A stretch of 63,268 bases of DNA from Candidatus Saccharimonadia bacterium (GTDB lineage Bacteria; Patescibacteriota; Saccharimonadia; UBA4664; JBIOIQ01), in the NCBI GenBank assembly GCA_044449985.1, contig JBIOIQ010000005.1:1-63268 (forward strand). Direction: 5' to 3'. The stretch's first letter is position 1; each line of letters starts with the position of its first letter. The position numbers were made by a program, and so were the translations under genes. Below the pieces are notes generated by a model. The model was not told the origin of the DNA. It was given only the letters and a program-made list of their open reading frames with translations, and did no database searches. Of the stretch, positions 1-31,968 are shown piece after piece.

Positions 1-150
1 CCCCACACCCCCCGGGGGGCCCCCCCCCCGGGGCCCACCCCCCCACACCGCCCTCAAAAACCCCCAACCCCCCCCAACCCCCCATTGGTACCCCCCCGTT
101 TGCCGGGGGGGGGGGGGCGCCCCCCCCCCCCCCCCCCCCCCACGCCCAAA
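1..150. repeat. Homopolymeric C/G low-complexity tract at contig edge (probable sequencing/assembly artefact)
   Basis: Runs of C and G up to ~25 nt with no ORF or periodic unit. It abuts the window start and ends abruptly at normal-complexity sequence. Confidence 0.7.
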
Positions 151-637: not shown

Positions 638-914
638 CTTGTAAGAAAGTTACTTAAGGGCGCATGAAGGATGCCTTGACGTAAAGTACCGACGAAGGGC
701 GTAGAAGGCTGCGATAAGCCTCGGTGAGCTGCCAATCAAGCTTTGACCCGGGGATTTCCGAATGGGGCAACCCAGTACGGGTAATACCGTATTACCATCA
801 TCTGAATATATAGGATGATCGGAGGGCACGTTGTGAACTGAAACATCTTAGTAGCAACAGGAAGAGAGAGAAACCTCAATTCCCCAAGTAGCGGCGAGCG
901 AACAGGGAAGAGCC

Positions 915-1095
915 AAAACTTTTTAATTTTTCGCAAGTTTACTTGCGAATAAGCTGACAGGCGAATAATTAAAAAGGGTTGTGAGACTACAAACGACCAT
1001 TAAAGAGCACTGTTACAGTTAATCTGGCAAAAGTGGTCTTTAATGTGACGGAACCGCTGTCACGGACCGGTAAGGTAAGAAAATTAGAGATTAAT
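915..1095 (+). other. AT-rich expansion block in 23S domain I (~145-180 extra nt)
   Basis: About 180 nt lie between the GAGCC and GGAAGGATCTGGAAAG landmarks, versus ~36 nt in E. coli. The block has internal stems, for example CTTTTTAATT/AATTAAAAAG. Confidence 0.6.
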
Positions 1096-2526
1096 GGAAG
1101 GATCTGGAAAGTTCCGCCAAAGAGAGTGAAAGCCTCGTACATGAAAACCTCTAGTCCTTATGTTTGTTTTCTCGAGTAGGTCGGGACACGTGAAACCCTG
1201 ACTGAATCTGGGAGGACCACCTCCCAAGGCTAAATATACTTTACGATCGATAGCGAACAAGTACCGTGAGGGAAAGGCGAAAAGAACCCCGGAAGGGGAG
1301 TGAAATAGAACCTGAAATCATGTGCCTACAATGAGTCAGAGCAGATTTATTCTGTGATGGCGTGCTTTTTGTAGAACGATCCAGCGAGTTAATTTACAGT
1401 GCGTTAGGTTAAGCCATATGGCGGAGCCGTAGTGAAAGCGAGGGTTAATAACCCGAATTAGTACTGTGGATTAGACCCGAAACCGGGTGACCTAACCATG
1501 GGCAGGCTGAAGCGTAGGTAACACTACGTGGAGGGCCGAACCAGGGACAGTTACAAATGTCTTGGATGACCTGTGGTTAGCGGAGAAATTCCAATCGAAC
1601 TCGGAGATAGCTGGTTCTCGTCGAAATAGCTTTAGGGCTAGCGTCATAAACTACCTCCTGGGGGTAGAGCTCTGTTTGGGTTAGGGCCAGCAATGGTACC
1701 ACGCCCTGGCAAACTGCGAATACCGGGAGAGACTATTATGGCAGTCAGAAAGTGGGGGCTAAGCTCCATTTTCAAAAGGAAAACAGTCCAGACCGCCGTC
1801 TAAGGCCCCTAAATTCTAGCTAAGTGGGAAACGATGTGGAGATGCATAAACAACCAGGATGTGGGCTTAGAAGCAGCCATGCATTTAAAGAGTGCGTAAC
1901 AGCTCACTGGTCAATTGTGACTCTGCGCGGAAAATATAACGGGGCTCAAGCTAGATGCCGAAGACGCGGACTTCGTACGCAAGTACGGATTGGTAGACGA
2001 GCGTTCCTCGTGTTGTGAAGCCGAGCCGGAAGGCCAGGTGGAATGCGGGGAAGTGAGAATGCTGGAATAAGTAACCATAAGTCGGGTGAGAATCCCGACC
2101 ACCGAAAGAGCAAGGTTTCCTGGGCAACGATTATCGTCCCAGGGTTAGTCGGGCCTAAGCCGAGGCGAGTAGCGTAGGCGATGGACAACGGATTAATATT
2201 TCCGTACCGGCGACGATGTTGTCTATGATTGCGCGGCGTGGTAGCTCGAGCGGATTTTTGGCTATATCCGTCCAAGCAGGTAGTCTGCCGTAAGGCAGGT
2301 GAGACGCAAATGAAACGGCCGTAAAAGGCTGAATTCGAGCAAGCCAAGCTGACCAGAAAAGATCATAGATGTATGAAATCGTAGCCGCCCGTACCGCAAA
2401 CCGACTCAGGTGCTCAGGTCGAGTAGACCAAGGTGTACGAGAGAACCCTCGTTAAGGAACTCGGCAATACAGCGACCGTAACTTCGGGATAAGGTCTGCC
2501 GGGGCGCTCTTCACTTTGTGAAGTGC

Positions 2527-2605
2527 AATTCCCTAAATTGAAAGTATTTTTTTCTTGAATCAAAAGAATACTACGTGTAAAGAAAGAAGACATTGTTAAG
2601 CTCAT
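2527..2605 (+). other. AT-rich expansion block in 23S domain IV variable helix (~70 extra nt)
   Basis: The region between AACTTCGGGATAAGG and GCGACTGTTTAGCAAAAACACAGG is about twice the E. coli length. Confidence 0.5.
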
Positions 2606-2799
2606 TACACAGTGATGAGCGTCTCGGCCGCAGCAAAAGAGCCCATGCGACTGTTTAGCAAAAACACAGGTCTGTGCTAAAGCGAAAGCTGATGTATACG
2701 GACTGACGCCTGCCCGGTGCTGGAAGGTTAAGTGGAGAGGTGCAAGCTTTGAAATGAAGCCCCAGTAAACGGCGGCGATAACTATAATCGTCCTAAGGT

Positions 2800-3114
2800 A
2801 GGATAAAGCTGCTTTAGTGAGGTGAGAGCCCTCCTCTAGTTTTACCTCTGTGCAGAGGTTTTAAGAGAAAATCTGGCTATATGCTGGAAAACCCGTGAAT
2901 CCTGGACTAGTCAGAATGCTTCACTGCATACTGACTGACAATGTTATAGGTGCGGATGATCAGCAGGAAAGATTTGATTATAAATCAAATATCCTCAGAG
3001 ACTACACGCCGGATCTGCTTTAATAGGCAGAAAGATATAGTCCGAACTGTTTGGCGACAAACAGACTACGAGATAGCTAAAGTCACGTAGCACGAAATAT
3101 CGTGTAACAAATTA
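2800..3114 (+). ncRNA. Group I intron without ORF in 23S at about E. coli U1931 (boundaries +/-2 nt)
   Basis: It interrupts CCTAAGGT|AGCGAAATTCC. Exon CTAAGGT (2793-2799) pairs with intron GCTTTAG (2811-2817), giving U2799.G2811 at the splice site. The core motif CAGAGACTACA...AAAGATATAGTCC (J8/7-P7) is present. Confidence 0.8.
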
Positions 3115-3134
3115 AGCGAAATTCCTTGTCGGGT

Positions 3135-3848
3135 AAGACAAGGCAACCCGTGTTAAATACGGGAAGTGAACTTGCCCATGCTGGCTAATAACGGTGAAAC
3201 CCTATTGCTTGTTCGTATTATGTTCGGTAAATTGAACATATGATTTCAATCAAGGGTAATACCGTGGGAAGTCGTCCAACATGTTGGATTGACCCCGTAA
3301 CGACTAAGTCGAAAGACGCGATAGTGGCTACTACTCCTGATGGAGTAAATTTATGGCTACTATAATACGCCGGCCTCAGACCTATATTGCCCCATATTTC
3401 TCAGGTTTTATCGATGGCGAAGGCTGTTTTACAGTTTCAGTTAGTCGAAGAGCAAAGATGAATATGGGCTGGGAAGTTAGACCAAGTTTTTCAGTAAGTC
3501 AGAATAAAGATAGAGCAAATGTGCTGTATCTGATGATGGATTATTTTCAATGTGGTTCAATCCGTCCGGATCGATCCGATAATACTTTGAAATATGAAGT
3601 TAGATCGCTTACGAAGCTTACAGATAACATTATTCCTCATTTTGAGGAATATCCTTTGCTTTCTAGTAAACAAAATTCATTTCAGGCTTTTAAAAAGATC
3701 TGTTTAGAAATGCAAGATGGCAAACATTTGTCACCGAAACATTTAAACTCGATTTTACAAAGAGCAGAAATGATTAACGGCGGAAAACGCAAGTATAGAT
3801 TTGGGAAGATATAGTCTGGTCCTACGAGTAATCGTAGACACGGAATCG
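3135..3848 (+). mobile_element. Group I intron with LAGLIDADG homing endonuclease gene in 23S at E. coli U1951
   Basis: It interrupts TTGTCGGGT|AAGTTCCGACCTGCACGAATGG. The guide sequence GAACTTGCCC (3168-3177) pairs GCCC with the 5' exon GGGT (U.G at the splice site) and GAACTT with the 3' exon AAGTTC. The intron ends in G3848 and carries the core motif GGAAGATATAGTC. Confidence 0.9.
3353..3814 (+). CDS. LAGLIDADG homing endonuclease, single-motif (I-CreI-like homodimer type), intron-encoded
   Basis: The 153-aa protein has the motif YFSGFIDGEGCF near the N-terminus. GGAG lies 7 nt upstream of the ATG, and the ORF sits inside the L1951 intron. Confidence 0.9.
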   Translation: MATIIRRPQTYIAPYFSGFIDGEGCFTVSVSRRAKMNMGWEVRPSFSVSQNKDRANVLYLMMDYFQCGSIRPDRSDNTLKYEVRSLTKLTDNIIPHFEEYPLLSSKQNSFQAFKKICLEMQDGKHLSPKHLNSILQRAEMINGGKRKYRFGKI

Positions 3849-4107
3849 AAGTTCCGACCTGCACGAATGGCGTAACGATATGGGCACTGTCTCAACGAGG
3901 GACTCGGTGAAATTGTATTAGCGGTAAAGATACCGTTTACCCGCACCAAGACGGAAAGACCCCGTGGAGCTTTACTACAACTTGGCATTGGGCCGAGTTG
4001 CGACATGTGTAGAATAGGTGGGAGGCTTTGAAGCGTCGGCGCTAGCCGATGTGGAGCCGCAATATGAAATACCACCCTTGCTGTAACTTGTGTCCTAACC
4101 AGTGCCG

Positions 4108-4214
4108 CAAATTGCGCATAAAAGTTGGATCAGAGTAGAGAGCATCCAAATGGTCCGACTAAATATTACTTTCAAATGGTTTTTACATACCTTTTGTTAA
4201 ATTATGCTCAATTT
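4108..4214 (+). other. 107-nt AT-rich insertion capping a 23S domain V helix (E. coli ~2200-2225 region)
   Basis: The conserved stem CAGTGCCG/CGGCACTG (4100-4107/4216-4223) encloses 107 nt, where E. coli has a short hairpin loop. Confidence 0.6.
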
Positions 4215-4599
4215 CCGGCACTGGAACAGTGTCTGGTGGGTAGTTTAACTGGGGCGGTTGCCTCCCAAAGAGTAACGGAGGCGTTCAAAGGTTGGCTAGG
4301 TTCGGATGGAAATCGAACCGATAGTGCAAACGCAGAAGCCAGCTTGACTGTGAGGCCTACAAGCCGATCAGGTACGAAAGTAGGAGTTAGTGATCCGCTG
4401 CAAATTAGTCCCGATGCTTTTGTGTCGGGATGCGAAAGTGGAATCTGCAGCGCTCAACGGACAAAAGTTACCCCGGGGATAACAGGCTTATAGCGCCCAA
4501 GCGTCCACAGCGACGGCGCTGTTTGGCACCTCGATGTCGGCTCGTCCTATCCTGGGGGGGAAGCACCTCCCAAGGGTTTGGCTGTTCGCCAATGAAAAG

Positions 4600-4647
<48 letters not shown>

Positions 4648-4975
4648 TGGTGTGGGCGTAAGGAAATTTGAGAGGAGTGACTCCTAGTACGAGAGGACCG
4701 GAGTGAACGAACCTCTGGTGTATCGGTTGTTCTGCCAAGGGCTTCGCCGAGTAGCTATGTTCGGACGAGATAAGCGCTGAAAGCATATAAGCGCGAAACT
4801 TACCTCAAGATTAGATTTCCCAATCAGACCCCATGTAGACTACGTGGTTGATAGGCACTAGGTGTAAGCACAGTAATGTGTTCAGCCGAGGTGTACTAAT
4901 AGGTCGAATGACTTTTTTACAAAACTTTTTTTGTCATATTGTCGATTTTTTGGGCAAAATGGCGCTAAAAGTATT

Positions 4976-29014: not shown

Positions 29015-30373
29015 ATGGCTGAAATACTTCCAGAAGTTGAGACTTTTGCCCGCATAAAAGTTATCGGTATTGGTGGTGGCGGTGGTGCTGCCATCGAAAG
29101 AATGATCGTATCGAAGGTGCAGGGAATAGAGTTTGTAGCGGTTAATACCGATGCGCAGGCTTTGCATTACTCCCATGCCCAACATAAGCTTCATATCGGA
29201 AAACAGACCACTCGCGGACTTGGTGCGGGTGCTGACCCGGAAGTAGGTCGAAAAGCAGCTGAGGAAAGCGAATCGGATATTGCCGATATGCTCAAAGGCT
29301 CTGATATGGTATTTATAACAATTGGTGCTGGAGGTGGAACCGGTACCGGAGCAGCGCCGTTAGTTGCTGCCACCGCCCGGGAGACTGGCGCATTAGTCGT
29401 AGGGATTGCCACCAAACCGTTTACTTTTGAAGGTGAGCGACGTCGGCGAGTGGCCGAGGCCGGGATAGTCGAGCTAAAAGACAATGTTGATACCTTAATT
29501 ACAATCCCGAACGATCGCTTGCTCCAAATGATCGATCGTAAAACTTCACTGCTTGATGCCTTTAGCGTTGTCGACGAAGTTTTGCAACAAGGCGTGCAGG
29601 GCATATCCGATCTCATTACGATTCATGGCCTGATAAATCTCGATTTTGCTGACGTTAAGGCGATTATGAGCAATGCCGGATCGGCACTGATGGGAATTGG
29701 TCGAGCGGCCGGAGATAATCGAGCGATTGAAGCTGCCCGTCAGGCGATTGATTCGCCATTACTTGAGATATCAATTGATGGCGCTAAGGGAGTACTCTTT
29801 AATATTACCGGTGGACGCAACATGAGCATGCATGAAATTGATGAGGCGGCCAAAACTATTACGGGCGCTGTCGATCAGGATGCCAACATAATATTCGGTG
29901 CAGTGCTGGATGATACGATGGATGATGATATTAAAATTACGGTGGTCGCGACTGGGTTTGATAACCGACCTCGAGAACATATTCATGTAGAAAATCGACC
30001 GGAAAGATTGCAAGAACGTTTGCTTGTTCCTGAGGAAGAACCCGAACCGGTGTTCGCGAGCCCAGTAATTACTGAGAATCGTAAGCCATTTATTGATGAA
30101 CGTCCGCAATTTATTGAACCTGAAACCATCCTTGAGGACCCGGTGATTGCGGAAGTCGTTGTCTCGTCTGTTATGAGTATCGAACCTGACCCGGAAGAAT
30201 TCGAACCCGAAGCCAGTTTTTTTGAAGAACCAGCACCGCGAAAGAGTATCTTAAATGATAAGCCAATGATTGAAAAAAATCCGCCGGAGCCGGAAGCCAA
30301 GCCAAACGAACGGGAGTTTCCATCAGAGGATGATCTCGACATTCCGGCCTTTATCCGACGCAAAGTCGAGTAA
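29015..30373 (+). CDS. ftsZ: Cell division protein FtsZ with long Pro/Glu-rich C-terminal linker
   Basis: [10 protein letters not shown] tubulin signature and the conserved C-terminal peptide [12 protein letters not shown]. Confidence 0.97.
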
Positions 30374-30389
30374 CAACACTTAGCCCAAG

Positions 30390-30418
30390 TTGACATTCCA
30401 TTTATCTGGAATTACTAT
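30390..30418 (+). promoter_or_regulatory. Sigma70-type promoter (TTGACA-17-TACTAT)
   Basis: -35 at 30390-30395 and -10 at 30413-30418, 17 nt after the ftsZ stop. Confidence 0.55.
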
Positions 30419-30508
30419 AGCTTTCGTGAAGACAACGCCACAACTTATGAAGAGATATTACCGAGGGTTTGCACTTGATCTCTTTATTGTTGCCCCCCGC
30501 TGCTAACG

Positions 30509-30555
30509 GCCTTTTAAATGATCATCATAAAAGGCCTCCAAGAGAGGCCTTTTTC
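30509..30555 (+). promoter_or_regulatory. Mutually exclusive hairpins: candidate antiterminator plus intrinsic terminator (attenuator-like)
   Basis: Hairpin 1 is GGCCTTTTA (30509-30517) with TAAAAGGCC (30529-30537). Hairpin 2 is AGGCCTC (30533-30539) with GAGGCCT (30544-30550), followed by a T run. The two share 30533-30537. Confidence 0.5.
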
Positions 30556-30560
30556 AATAC

Positions 30561-30681
30561 TAGCCTGTAGCTCAATGGAAGAGCGCACAAAGTTAGTCCG
30601 GAAGTGCTCCTACGTATCCCTAGTAGCACTTTTTAGCGACGGTACAGAGTGAGGTTATGGGTTCGACTCCCATCAGGCTGC
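30561..30681 (+). tRNA. Non-canonical tRNA-like gene (normal acceptor, D and T arms; 72 nt in place of the anticodon/variable region); isotype undetermined
   Basis: Acceptor TAGCCTG/CAGGCTG, then TA, D arm GCTC-AATGGAA-GAGC and T arm ATGGG-TTCGACT-CCCAT. There is no encoded CCA, and the internal segment is ~50 nt too long. Confidence 0.5.
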
Positions 30682-30685
30682 TCCA

Positions 30686-30764
30686 GGGGGCTTAAGCTGA
30701 TATATGGACAGCTGCTGCAGCGGTTTTGCAGTGTATGAGAGTTCGAATCTCTCAGCCTCCACCA
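30686..30764 (+). tRNA. tRNA with alanine identity set (G3.U70, A73, encoded CCA) but aberrant anticodon loop GCGGTTT (nominal anticodon GGT)
   Basis: Full cloverleaf: GGGGGCT/AGCCTCC acceptor, AGCT/AGCT D stem, CTGCA/TGCAG anticodon stem, 5-nt variable loop and GAGAG-TTCGAAT-CTCTC T arm. Position 33 is C and position 37 is T. Confidence 0.6.
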
Positions 30765-30968
30765 CTTTAGAATGGCACTGGTCGGTTGCAATCACCCAGA
30801 AAGAGGGGGACTGCTGTGAGCAATACCAGGATTCACTTCTTTTTTCGAGCTGCGGGACGCAGAGAATGCACCAACCCTCAAGTTATTGAGCAAGGTGCGG
30901 CGGCCTGGAAAGTTGTCGAGCCTCTCATTTTAGAGGGCTTAATAGTGCCAAGATGGCCGATCGGAAAG

Positions 30969-31124
30969 GTTAAGGCCTATACTTACTCCTTGTGGACTCT
31001 GTGTCAGGTTGAAATACCTGATCAATCTCGAGCCACCGTTGCCGAGCGAATTTACGTCGTCGGATTCCTCGCCCAGCGTTCACCGAAGCCTGCCCGGCTC
31101 GCGTCGGAGGATCTGTACGACTAA
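30969..31124 (+). pseudogene. Possible truncated paralogue of the downstream 31218-31475 gene
   Basis: The track ORF 30786-31124 ends ...KVKAYTYSL..AERIYVV..SP..RLASEDLYD*. This is colinear with VKAYVLYT..AEEIYAD..SP..RIAEIYDL in the downstream protein. It lacks an SD or start and lacks the C-terminal half. Confidence 0.3.
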
Positions 31125-31744: not shown

Positions 31745-31968
31745 GCGATGATAAGCCCGACATTATGTAAAGCGTTTCATCAATAATCGATGAAAGAGCG
31801 GCTATCAACCGCAATGAGTGGGACAAGTTCTCGGCGCGCAGCAGGAAAAATCGAGAACCTTCTCGACTAGAACCTGACGGACTGCCTCGTAAGTGCAGCA
31901 ATGAAGTTCCACCAAGCAGGGTGGTACCTCCGCTGGTTTAGCGGACCCTGCAGAGGTGGTTTTTTGTT
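31745..31968 (+). promoter_or_regulatory. T-box riboswitch leader of ileS
   Basis: T-box sequence AAGCAGGGTGGTACCTCCG (31914-31932) lies within a terminator/antiterminator region (CCACC..GCAGGGT..CCGCT/AGCGG..ACCCTGC..GGTGG plus T6). A GATGA K-turn-like element sits at the base. Candidate AUC-A specifiers are at 31804-31807 or 31778-31781. Confidence 0.8.

What the first reader, a model, noticed from the sequence alone, without database searches (positions are those of the whole stretch)
30686..30764. Alanine-identity tRNA (G3.U70, A73, encoded CCA) with an anticodon loop that breaks the universal rules
The cloverleaf is otherwise standard: GGGGGCT/AGCCTCC acceptor with a G3.U70 wobble, A73, a genomically encoded CCA, and a good T arm.
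- The 5-bp anticodon stem CTGCA/TGCAG (30715-19/30727-31) encloses GCGGTTT (30720-26).
- That loop puts C at position 33 (normally the invariant U) and T at position 37 (normally a purine). The nominal anticodon is GGT, which is Thr.
- The string TTTGCA, the core of a normal tRNA-Ala(UGC) loop, is present at 30725-30730 but lies in the 3' half of the stem.
- G3.U70 is the established dominant determinant for AlaRS, so the RNA should be alanylated whatever its anticodon.
- A charged tRNA that decodes poorly is reminiscent of the non-proteinogenic tRNAs that feed Fem-type peptidoglycan cross-bridge or aminoacyl-lipid synthesis. The gene lies in the division/cell-wall cluster. That functional link is speculation.
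Basis: partly seen in the sequence, partly recalled or inferred. Interest (0 to 1): 0.65.

Follow-up and report, generated by a model that had tools for sequence, protein, structure and literature searches.

The report
Anticodon-less alanine-type tRNA-like gene
A small group of Saccharimonadales (TM7) bacteria carries, just after ftsZ, a tRNA-shaped RNA gene that keeps the marks for charging with alanine but has a closed hairpin where the anticodon should be, so it probably accepts alanine without reading codons; its use is unknown.

Summary
The cloverleaf at 30686-30764 is real and at the stated coordinates. ARAGORN misses it. Rfam matches only its ends to tmRNA, at 27.6 bits against a threshold of 47.

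Four full orthologues in related Saccharimonadales genomes sit in the same slot after ftsZ. In them G1-C72, G2-C71, G3.U70, G4-C69 and A73 never vary. Ten of the 20 modelled pairs change on both sides while keeping the pairing. The anticodon arm is a closed hairpin with a different loop in each genome: GCGGUUU, AGGA, UUAUCGG, UUCG. The encoded CCA is present only in the window.

So this is a conserved, non-decoding RNA that is probably charged with alanine. It is neither a decoder nor a decaying pseudogene. It follows a leader-ORF/terminator unit and a second tRNA-like gene (30561-30685). The long arm of that second gene evolves like a coding sequence but has no start codon.

The closest known things are the tRNA-like-domain-only ("TLD-only") tmRNA forms. 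The cell-wall idea has no support: no Fem or MprF gene lies in the window, and the element is patchy even among close relatives.

No expression or charging data could be found. The element appears only in a narrow clade.

The parts
30390..30418 (+). Sigma-70-type promoter TTGACA-17 nt-TACTAT. It probably drives the leader ORF and, by read-through, the tRNA-like genes.
   Evidence: 10 of 12 matches. TTGACA with a similar -10 box is seen at the same place in L001, L002, L003, L168, L169 and L170.
30426..30506 (+). Short leader ORF: GTG at 30426 or ATG at 30447, encoding MKRYYRGFALDLFIVAPRC. It has almost no 5' leader.
   Evidence: The peptide motif ..LGLFIV.. recurs in 7 loci.
30508..30554 (+). 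Intrinsic terminator (GGCCTC 30533-38 / GAGGCC 30544-49, then T5), with an upstream segment GGCCTTTT (30508-15) that can pair with AAAAGGCC (30529-36). This looks like an attenuator.
   Evidence: Folding. The same arrangement, with changed letters (GAGGCT/AGCCTC), occurs in the other loci. The consensus terminator scan missed it. Function is inferred.
30561..30685 (+). e1: a tRNA-like gene. Acceptor TAGCCTG/CAGGCTG, D arm, T arm ATGGG-TTCGACT-CCCAT. A 60-nt irregular hairpin replaces the anticodon arm. The 3' tail is C-TCCA.
   Evidence: Rfam tRNA 39.1 bits. Orthologues are in L171 and L001 (43.1 bits), with compensatory acceptor and T-stem changes.
30571..30636 (+). Start-less open frame inside the e1 arm (..LNGRAHKVSPEVLLRIPSSTF*) that evolves like a coding sequence.
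   Evidence: All 8 nucleotide differences from L171 across 15 codons are synonymous. Simulation gives P of at most 1e-5. The other five frames show 0-5 synonymous against 9-14 non-synonymous codon changes.
30686..30764 (+). e2, the finding: an alanine-identity tRNA-like gene whose anticodon arm is a closed hairpin.
30816..31124 (+). Fast-evolving gene of about 100 aa, function unknown. It starts 30-80 nt after the last tRNA-like element in every locus and is preceded by an RBS, GAGGGGG.

Best explanation
**Shown**
- 30686-30764 is a real RNA gene restricted to one lineage. It occurs only in a narrow Saccharimonadales subclade, in loci whose FtsZ is at least 77% identical to the window's.
- Selection maintains its tRNA cloverleaf and its elbow nucleotides (GG in the D loop, a UUCRA T loop).
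- It keeps the full AlaRS recognition set: G2-C71, G3.U70, G4-C69 and A73.
- Its anticodon arm has become a stable closed hairpin whose loop differs in every genome.

**Inferred**
- The gene probably descends from a tRNA-Ala gene. It has a covarying D stem and a CUGC/GCAG anticodon stem.
- It is transcribed from the TTGACA promoter by read-through of the leader terminator.
- RNase P cuts its 5' end, which would also create the CCA-ending 3' end of e1. It is then trimmed and given CCA by the CCA-adding enzyme. The lineage's true tRNA-Phe also lacks an encoded CCA.
- It is charged with alanine by AlaRS, which does not read the anticodon.
- It cannot pair with a codon.

**Committed mechanism**
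It works like the anticodon-less alanine acceptor of tmRNA, that is, like a 'TLD-only' tmRNA form. It would engage EF-Tu, SmpB or stalled ribosomes, or titrate those factors, rather than take part in normal decoding. It may work with the neighbouring e1, which carries a start-less reading frame under selection.
For: **Structure and selection**
- cloverleaf folds in all copies.
- 96% of cells paired, 10 of 20 pairs with changes on both sides, 0 of 500 shuffles as high.
- Between the closest pair, window and L171, the body of e2 is about 85% identical and the flanking spacer about 63%. The T-stem pair 50:64 changed from A-U to G-C.

**Alanine identity**
- Pairs 1-4 and A73 are invariant in window, L171, L002 and L003.
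- In e1 the same distal acceptor pairs do change between window and L001.
- The very different long-arm element of L170 also has G3.U70, A73 and CCA.

**No decoding**
- Loops are GCGGUUU, AGGA, UUAUCGG and UUCG.
- ARAGORN calls only the L002 copy, as an odd 'tRNA-Asp(atc)'.
- Rfam gives no tRNA or tmRNA match at E up to 0.1 for the L002 and L003 copies.

**tmRNA likeness**
- Rfam tmRNA ends match at 27.6 bits and, for L170, 20.4 bits.
- The e1 arm has a coding signature without a start codon.
- The L001 e1 arm reads A-L-A-A-stop.

**Precedents**
- Phage DS6A carries a TLD-only tmRNA. A similar molecule inhibits tmRNA, perhaps by titrating SmpB (PMC4131195).
- Plastid tmRNAs of about 65 bp without a coding sequence, and mitochondrial tmRNAs without a tag frame, are reported (PMC11915505).
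Against: - There is no expression, processing or charging evidence. No public run holds the stretch.
- Only four full copies and one truncated copy are known, representing about three independent lineages. Conservation of G3.U70 could still be inheritance.
- e2 has a D stem and an anticodon-arm-like hairpin where SmpB sits on a tmRNA TLD, so it is more like a tRNA than like a TLD.
- The Rfam tmRNA score is below the family threshold. tRNA-Ala shares the same ends.
- Presence is patchy. L001 has e1 only, L002 and L168 have e2 only, and L169 has neither. That argues against an essential role and against obligate e1-e2 cooperation.
- Standard tmRNA genes were found in 5252 of 6765 Patescibacteria genomes, so a normal ssrA probably exists elsewhere in this genome.
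Confidence: 0.4

Rival explanations
1. Processing-only element. e1 and e2 are tRNA-shaped 'punctuation' in a leader - tRNA-like - mRNA transcript. RNase P and 3' processing enzymes cut them out, which sets the 5' end of the downstream mRNA. The alanine marks are a relic of descent from tRNA-Ala and are not used.
For: - There is no room for a promoter between the terminator and e1 (6 nt), or between e1 and e2 (4 nt).
- The RBS of the next gene follows within 30-80 nt in every locus.
- e1 keeps its shape without any conserved identity set.
- L169 has a different multi-hairpin structure in the same slot (z = -5.7).
- This reading explains why the anticodon arm is free to vary and why presence is patchy.
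Against: - It does not explain why G1-G4, the G.U wobble and A73 stay fixed in all e2 copies and recur in the L170 element, while the neighbouring pairs, and the distal acceptor pairs of e1, change.
- A single U-to-C change would make the helix stronger.
Confidence: 0.2
2. One reading: a dedicated non-proteinogenic alanyl donor for a Fem/MurM-type peptidoglycan transferase, an MprF-type lipid aminoacylase, or another aminoacyl-tRNA-dependent enzyme.
For: - AlaRS needs no anticodon, so a donor tRNA-Ala could lose its anticodon.
- G1-C72 and G2-C71 are critical for FemX of Weissella (PMC2175331), and they are invariant in e2.
- Specialised non-proteogenic tRNA-Gly exist in staphylococci (PMC7826273).
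Against: - No Fem, MprF or other such transferase was found among the 45 window ORFs scanned with Pfam, which include all 43 ORFs of 150 aa or more that lie outside the rRNA and other genes, or in the neighbouring genes of the related loci.
- The element is absent from close relatives L001 and L169 and from all other Saccharimonadales loci examined. A core cell-wall role would not allow that.
[quoted passage not shown] Here the T loop and the D-loop GG are canonical.
Confidence: 0.12
3. Regulatory decoy: an uncharged or charged tRNA mimic that titrates AlaRS, a T-box leader or a tRNA-directed toxin or nuclease.
For: - It lies in an attenuator-controlled unit.
- A weak T-box-like leader lies about 1 kb downstream, before ileS (22.9 bits).
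- The neighbouring small protein gene evolves fast.
- Irregular tRNA-like genes have been proposed to go with toxin-antitoxin or mobile elements (PMC7609411).
Against: - No toxin, nuclease or integrase gene lies nearby.
- T-box binding needs an anticodon match.
- The downstream protein has no recognisable fold match.
Confidence: 0.1
4. A decaying tRNA-Ala pseudogene, an assembly error, or a left-over attachment site of an integrated element.
For: - The region between ftsZ and yggT varies in content among relatives.
- The window shows long-read-type artefacts: poly-C at 1-150, and a 2-nt difference in an A/G run at 30803-06.
Against: - Compensatory changes keep all four helices in every copy.
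- The short-read contig L171 confirms the architecture.
- The elements are complete cloverleaves, not 3' fragments, and no integrase is present.
Confidence: 0.06
5. A decoding tRNA with an odd loop: alanine inserted at ACC (Thr) codons through anticodon GGU.
For: A 5-bp stem with a 7-nt loop can be drawn in the window copy. ARAGORN reads the L002 copy as anticodon AUC.
Against: - The window copy has C33 and U37.
- The nominal anticodons differ (GGU, AUC) or are absent, with tetraloops in L171 and L003.
Confidence: 0.02

Closest known systems
TLD-only / CDS-less tmRNA forms: mycobacteriophage DS6A, Mallomonadaceae plastid genes of about 65 bp, mitochondrial tmRNA (PMC4131195, PMC11915505)
   Same: A small RNA that is little more than an alanine-identity acceptor stem, a T arm, an elbow and a short closing helix. 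It has no anticodon and no tag frame. It sits beside normal translation rather than in it.
   Different: e2 has a covarying 4-5 bp D stem, a 5-nt variable region and an arm the length of an anticodon arm, so it is built like a tRNA. Descent from tmRNA is not shown. It is chromosomal, in Saccharimonadales, next to a second tRNA-like gene.
Canonical bacterial tRNA-Ala(UGC)
   Same: GGGG...CUCCA acceptor with G3.U70 and A73, the cloverleaf, a canonical T loop, and (from my own knowledge) the CUGC/GCAG anticodon stem.
   Different: No 7-nt loop with U33 and a purine at 37, and no UGC or GGC anticodon. The loop differs in each genome. ARAGORN and Rfam tRNA do not call it at their thresholds.
Standard tmRNA (RF00023)
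   Same: An alanine-accepting tRNA-like domain without an anticodon. The Rfam model aligns to both ends (27.6 bits).
   Different: No mRNA-like domain or pseudoknots: 17-20 nt where tmRNA has about 300. It has a D stem. The score is below the gathering threshold of 47.
Non-proteogenic tRNA-Gly of Staphylococcus aureus, and the tRNA-Ala used by FemX of Weissella (PMC7826273, PMC2175331)
   Same: The idea of an aminoacyl-tRNA kept away from the ribosome. G1-C72 and G2-C71 are kept.
   Different: By my own knowledge those tRNAs keep normal anticodon loops, and a Fem transferase partners them. [quoted passage not shown] No transferase was found here, and the elbow is canonical.
Irregular or allo-tRNA-like sequences reported from soil bacteria and metatranscriptomes (reviewed in PMC7609411)
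   Same: Non-canonical tRNA-shaped genes, sometimes in polycistrons, of unknown function and not usable in translation.
   Different: Those have 8/4 or 9/3 acceptor/T structures. e2 has the standard 7/5 (7/4 in two copies) and a clear alanine identity set.

Membership tests
Elongator tRNA (tRNA-Ala) | Cloverleaf with a 7-bp acceptor stem, D and T arms and elbow nucleotides | tested here: met
   GG in the D loop and a UUCRA T loop are seen in all four copies.
Elongator tRNA (tRNA-Ala) | 7-nt anticodon loop with U33, a purine at 37 and a conserved anticodon that reads alanine codons | tested here: not met
   The window copy has C33, U37 and 'GGU'. L171 has an AGGA tetraloop, L003 a UUCG tetraloop, and L002 'AUC'.
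Elongator tRNA (tRNA-Ala) | Recognised by the standard detectors at their thresholds | tested here: not met
   ARAGORN finds 0 genes in the window. Rfam at gathering thresholds gives no tRNA or tmRNA match. tRNAscan-SE was not available.
Elongator tRNA (tRNA-Ala) | AlaRS identity set: G3.U70, with G2-C71, G4-C69 and A73 | tested here: met
   Invariant in all four copies. This is at the sequence level only; charging was not tested.
tmRNA (standard, RF00023) | mRNA-like domain with a tag frame and pseudoknots between the two halves of the tRNA-like domain | tested here: not met
   Only a 17-20-nt hairpin lies there.
tmRNA (standard, RF00023) | Score at or above the family's gathering threshold (47 bits) | tested here: not met
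   27.6 bits, ends only.
TLD-only / CDS-less tmRNA-like RNAs | Little more than an alanine-identity tRNA-like domain, with no tag coding sequence | tested here: met
   The family is described in PMC4131195 and PMC11915505.
TLD-only / CDS-less tmRNA-like RNAs | Closer homology to tmRNA than to tRNA | tested here: inconclusive
   The tmRNA model outscores tRNA in the clan comparison. But the D stem and the anticodon-type stem point to tRNA-Ala. No canonical tRNA-Ala or tmRNA of this genome was available for comparison.
TLD-only / CDS-less tmRNA-like RNAs | Binds SmpB or interferes with trans-translation | not testable with these tools
   Needs biochemistry. smpB is not in the window.
Non-proteogenic cell-wall tRNAs (Fem system) | A partner aminoacyl-tRNA transferase (Fem/MurM/MprF) in the genome | tested here: inconclusive
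   None found among the 45 window ORFs scanned with Pfam, which include all 43 ORFs of 150 aa or more that lie outside the rRNA and other genes, or among the neighbours in related loci. The rest of the genome could not be read.
Non-proteogenic cell-wall tRNAs (Fem system) | Weak EF-Tu and ribosome binding through D- and T-arm changes | not tested
   The T loop and D-loop GG are canonical here. Pair 49:65 is G-C, G.U, or mismatched in two copies. No affinity prediction was made.

The most novel reading that the evidence does not exclude
The locus holds a tmRNA-like system split over two adjacent tRNA-shaped genes.
- e1 carries the messenger part: a reading frame without a start codon, kept by purifying selection, inside the arm that replaces the anticodon arm.
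- e2 carries the alanine-acceptor part, with no anticodon.
- Relatives show the possible intermediates. L170 has one element with G3.U70/A73/CCA and a long arm. The arm of L001 e1 ends in A-L-A-A-stop.

This would be a new architecture for ribosome rescue or tagging, existing beside the standard ssrA.
Probability: 0.1. Interest if true: 0.85.

Novelty: new variant of a known kind. Interest (0 to 1): 0.6.

Why it matters
Apart from tmRNA and its reduced forms, I know of no natural cellular RNAs that keep an aminoacylation identity while having no anticodon.

A chromosomal, tRNA-built example would extend that class to the Patescibacteria. It is kept by compensatory evolution in a reduced-genome epibiont. 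It sits in an attenuator-controlled unit, next to a tRNA-shaped RNA with a translated-looking, start-less frame.

It would give a simple test case for three questions:
- How AlaRS, EF-Tu, SmpB and RNase P treat anticodon-less substrates.
- Whether small genomes use such RNAs for ribosome rescue, for regulation or as amino-acid donors.
- How tRNA genes are turned to new uses.

It is also a practical warning. Standard annotators either miss these genes or call them as odd tRNAs ('tRNA-Asp atc'), or as the 5' end of the next protein gene (L002, L171).

Tried and rejected
- **Standard detectors.** ARAGORN and Rfam at gathering thresholds give no call for e2.
- **FtsZ-based scans.** None carries the elements. 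The close relatives had to be fetched one at a time. One (P0005) had no DNA, and two contigs end inside or before the slot (L165, L168).
- **Sequencing runs.** None was found for the stretch, so expression could not be tested.
- **Phage collection.** No similarity to e1-e2.
- **Permuted or two-piece tmRNA reading of e1+e2.** Rejected by eye. Each element closes its own acceptor stem, and the 3' tail of e1 pairs with the 5' strand of e2 over only 4 bp.
- **e2 as part of the downstream protein gene.** Gene callers extend the ORF over e2 in L002 and L171. However, open frames of 25-43 codons are equally common in the other frames. Only a weak excess of synonymous change is seen in the spacer. I rejected this as the main explanation and kept it as a note.
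- **The e1 arm as a copy of, or antisense to, another gene.** No second copy of the DNA or the peptide occurs in the window or in any locus.
- **The downstream protein as a clue to function.** No Pfam family. One close homologue only. Two distant repeat proteins. The AlphaFold model has pLDDT 67 and no significant PDB match.
- **Literature.** Searches for tRNA-like or tmRNA oddities in Saccharibacteria found nothing specific.

Full report
**The organism and the locus**

The window is housekeeping DNA of a Saccharimonadales (TM7, Patescibacteria) bacterium. The best FtsZ matches are 82-63% identical, and the sources that name them call them Saccharimonadales or Saccharibacteria. The genes around the finding run in this order: adk, map, ftsA, ftsZ (29015-30373), the finding, a gene of about 100 aa with unknown function, a small thioredoxin-sized gene, yggT, ileS and ftsW/rodA. 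The rest of the window holds ribosomal RNA, translation factors, aminoacyl-tRNA synthetases, Sec, Mre and PBP genes.

**The observation**

- Acceptor GGGGGCU/AGCCUCC with G3.U70, then A73 and CCA.
- D arm, then anticodon stem CUGCA/UGCAG around GCGGUUU.
- Variable region UGUAU, then T arm GAGAG-UUCGAAU-CUCUC.

The cloverleaf is the minimum-free-energy fold (z = -2.5). ARAGORN finds no tRNA or tmRNA anywhere in the window. Rfam at curated thresholds finds only 23S rRNA, 5S rRNA and a group I intron. With permissive thresholds, the two ends of the tmRNA model align to the element at 27.6 bits against a threshold of 47. At 30561-30681, 4 nt upstream, lies a second tRNA-like gene. I call it e1 and call the finding e2. 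e1 scores 39.1 bits against the tRNA model and has a 60-nt insert where the anticodon arm should be.

**Relatives**

Two FtsZ-based scans of genome and metagenome collections returned only distant Patescibacteria. Neither my pattern scans nor a covariance model of e2 (0.99 Mb) found anything like e2 in them. Loci fetched one by one for the closest FtsZ proteins show that a narrow subclade shares the order ftsZ - slot - yggT - ileS. The content of the slot varies:

| Locus | Content of the slot |
|---|---|
| window | e1 + e2 |
| L171 | e1 + e2 (closest relative, short-read contig) |
| L003 | a degenerate long-arm element + e2 |
| L002 | e2 only |
| L168 | start of e2 at the contig end |
| L001 | e1 only |
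| L170 | a true tRNA-Phe + a long-arm tRNA-like element with G3.U70, A73 and CCA |
| L169 | no tRNA-like element; another multi-hairpin structure instead |

Relatives at 70-73% FtsZ identity, and one with 81% identity over 80% of the query, have other genes after ftsZ.

**What is conserved in e2**

The model built from the window and L171 copies recovers the L003 and L002 copies at E about 4e-5 and 2e-4. On the resulting alignment:
- 96% of pair cells are standard pairs.
- 10 of 20 pairs carry changes on both sides.
- None of 500 shuffles reaches these values.
- Sliding the partners drops pairing to 44-56%.

That alignment was fitted to the model, which favours the structure. However, the separate folds of each copy agree with it.

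Pairs 1-4 (G-C, G-C, G.U, G-C), pair 6 and A73 never vary. Pair 5:68 is G-C, A-U or C-G, and pair 7:66 is U-A or G-C. The D, anticodon and T stems covary.

The anticodon arm is a hairpin of 5-9 bp in every copy. Its loop is GCGGUUU (or CGGUU) in the window, AGGA in L171, UUAUCGG (or AUC) in L002 and UUCG in L003. The three letters after A73 are CCA, CUA, CUG and CGA. The true tRNA-Phe of L170 also lacks an encoded CCA, so this lineage presumably adds CCA after transcription.

Window and L171 are 89% identical overall across the slot. Within that, the e2 body is about 85% identical, the spacer after it about 63%, and the arm far less.

**Reading of e2**

Decay or an assembly artefact is excluded by the compensatory changes and by the independent short-read copy. 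Decoding is excluded by the loops.

The set of positions that stays fixed is, by established knowledge of tRNA-Ala identity, the set AlaRS reads: G3.U70 with G2-C71, G4-C69 and A73. In e1 the distal acceptor pairs do change between window and L001 (U.G to A-U, A-U to G-C), so there is no general constraint on them. G3.U70 and A73 also recur in the otherwise very different L170 element.

I therefore conclude that charging with alanine is probably a selected property. The basis is about three to four independent lineages, so the evidence is suggestive and not proof. The D stem and the CUGC/GCAG stem suggest descent from a tRNA-Ala gene.

**The surroundings**

Upstream of the tRNA-like genes every locus has three things:
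- A TTGACA promoter.
- A nearly leaderless ORF of 19-33 codons with a shared ..LGLFIV.. motif.
- A strong intrinsic terminator.

A segment at the end of the ORF can pair with the 5' half of the terminator. The letters differ between the window (GGCCUUUU/AAAAGGCC) and the other loci (GAGGCU/AGCCUC), but the pairing is kept. This looks like a translation-sensing attenuator. There is no room for another promoter before e1 or e2, so they are probably made by read-through. RNase P cleavage at the 5' end of e2 would leave e1 ending in ...GCUCCA. The RBS of the next gene follows 30-80 nt after the last element in every locus.

**The unexpected feature of e1**

Between window and L171 the body of e1 is almost identical, while the distal hairpin of its arm differs at many positions. 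In one plus-strand frame, 15 consecutive codons (LNGRAHKVSPEVLLR) are identical at the amino-acid level. All 8 nucleotide differences are synonymous, including CTC to TTA and CGT to AGA.

Simulations give P of at most 1e-5 for random positions, and 0.0055 even when the observed positions are kept. The other five frames show 0-5 synonymous against 9-14 non-synonymous codon changes. The 3' strand of the hairpin has followed with compensatory changes in a shifted register.

The frame has no conserved start codon, and in the window a stop codon precedes it. No other copy of the DNA or the peptide exists in the window or in any locus. In L001 the arm reads GCU UUA GCU GCA UAA, that is A-L-A-A-stop. 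By my own knowledge this is the ending of the classical ssrA tag.

The only known way to translate a start-less internal frame in bacteria is tmRNA-type resumption. Yet e1 has G3-C70 and a variable discriminator base, so by the usual rule it is not an AlaRS substrate. This remains unexplained.

**Comparison with what is known**

- tmRNA is the known natural RNA that is alanylated without an anticodon.
- Reduced forms exist. Phage DS6A carries a TLD-only gene, and a similar molecule strongly inhibits tmRNA, perhaps by titrating SmpB (PMC4131195).
- Plastid genes of about 65 bp without a coding sequence, tag-less mitochondrial tmRNAs and two-residue tags are reported (PMC11915505).
- Standard tmRNA genes were found in 5252 of 6765 Patescibacteria genomes (supplement of the same paper). 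The elements here are therefore probably extras and not the housekeeping ssrA.
- e2 works like these TLD-only forms on paper, but it is built like a tRNA, with a D stem and a variable region. It fails the tmRNA score threshold. I do not file it as a tmRNA.
- For the cell-wall idea, the staphylococcal non-proteogenic tRNA-Gly (PMC7826273) and the FemX/tRNA-Ala work (PMC2175331) are the right comparison. But no transferase gene is in the window or in the neighbouring loci, and the patchy distribution does not fit a core wall function.

**Verdict**

The cell-wall link is not.

My best reading, at confidence 0.4, is a non-decoding, alanine-accepting tRNA-like RNA that acts like a TLD-only tmRNA form. 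Its main rival, at 0.2, is a purely processing role with a relic identity.

The element is a new variant of a known kind. The whole locus deserves experimental follow-up: attenuator, e1 with its coding-like arm, and e2. Limits of this study:
- Only four full copies and one truncated copy are known.
- No expression data could be found.
- The rest of the genome could not be read.

Noticed in passing
window 30561-30685 (ORF 30571-30636): A second tRNA-like gene (e1), 4 nt upstream of the finding. A 60-nt arm replaces its anticodon arm. The 5' strand of that arm evolves like a coding sequence against L171: 8 of 8 nucleotide changes are synonymous, P of at most 1e-5. The frame has no start codon. 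The L001 orthologue's arm reads A-L-A-A-stop.
   Followed up: partly
window 30390-30554: Promoter, short nearly leaderless ORF (MKRYYRGFALDLFIVAPRC) and intrinsic terminator, with an alternative pairing (30508-15 with 30529-36). The unit is conserved in 7 loci with changed letters. It looks like a leader-peptide attenuator in front of tRNA or tRNA-like genes.
   Followed up: partly
L170 4661-4846: In a relative with 74% FtsZ identity the same slot holds a canonical tRNA-Phe(GAA). It is followed by a 100-nt tRNA-like element with G3.U70, A73, CCA, a UUGGAGU T loop and a 50-nt arm (Rfam tmRNA ends, 20.4 bits).
   Followed up: partly
L169 1855-1985: A close relative (81% FtsZ identity) has no tRNA-like gene in the slot. 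It has instead a closing stem around four hairpins (z = -5.7), directly before the RBS of the next gene.
   Followed up: no
window 31805-31952: A weak T-box-leader match (22.9 bits, E = 0.006, far below the gathering score of 93) in the 240-nt gap before ileS.
   Followed up: no
window 30800-30815 and L171 182-268: There is a 2-nt length difference in A/G homopolymers between the window and L171. In L171 the downstream ORF runs on upstream into the 3' half of e2 (GTG at 182), and the spacer shows a weak excess of synonymous changes. This is either a homopolymer error in the window or a real N-terminal extension that overlaps e2.
   Followed up: partly
window 30816-31124: A gene of about 100 aa, fast-evolving and of unknown function, always follows the tRNA-like elements. 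It has one close homologue and two distant proteins that repeat the roughly 55-aa unit 5-6 times. The AlphaFold model (pLDDT 67) is alpha/beta and has no PDB match.
   Followed up: partly
window 643-4920: The 23S rRNA gene is 4278 nt long against 2925 model positions. It contains a group I intron (2790-3064), a LAGLIDADG endonuclease ORF (3353-3814) and further insertions. No 16S gene or tRNA lies in the 640 nt upstream.
   Followed up: no
window 1-150: Runs of C and G without structure at the start of the window. This is most likely an assembly artefact at a contig end.
   Followed up: no
L002 4320-4420 and 5110-5215; L003 4320-4440; L170 4345-4440: Similar imperfect palindromic repeats of about 100 nt flank the slot in several relatives. 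I saw these by eye only. They may be small mobile or REP-like elements that contribute to the variability of the region.
   Followed up: no
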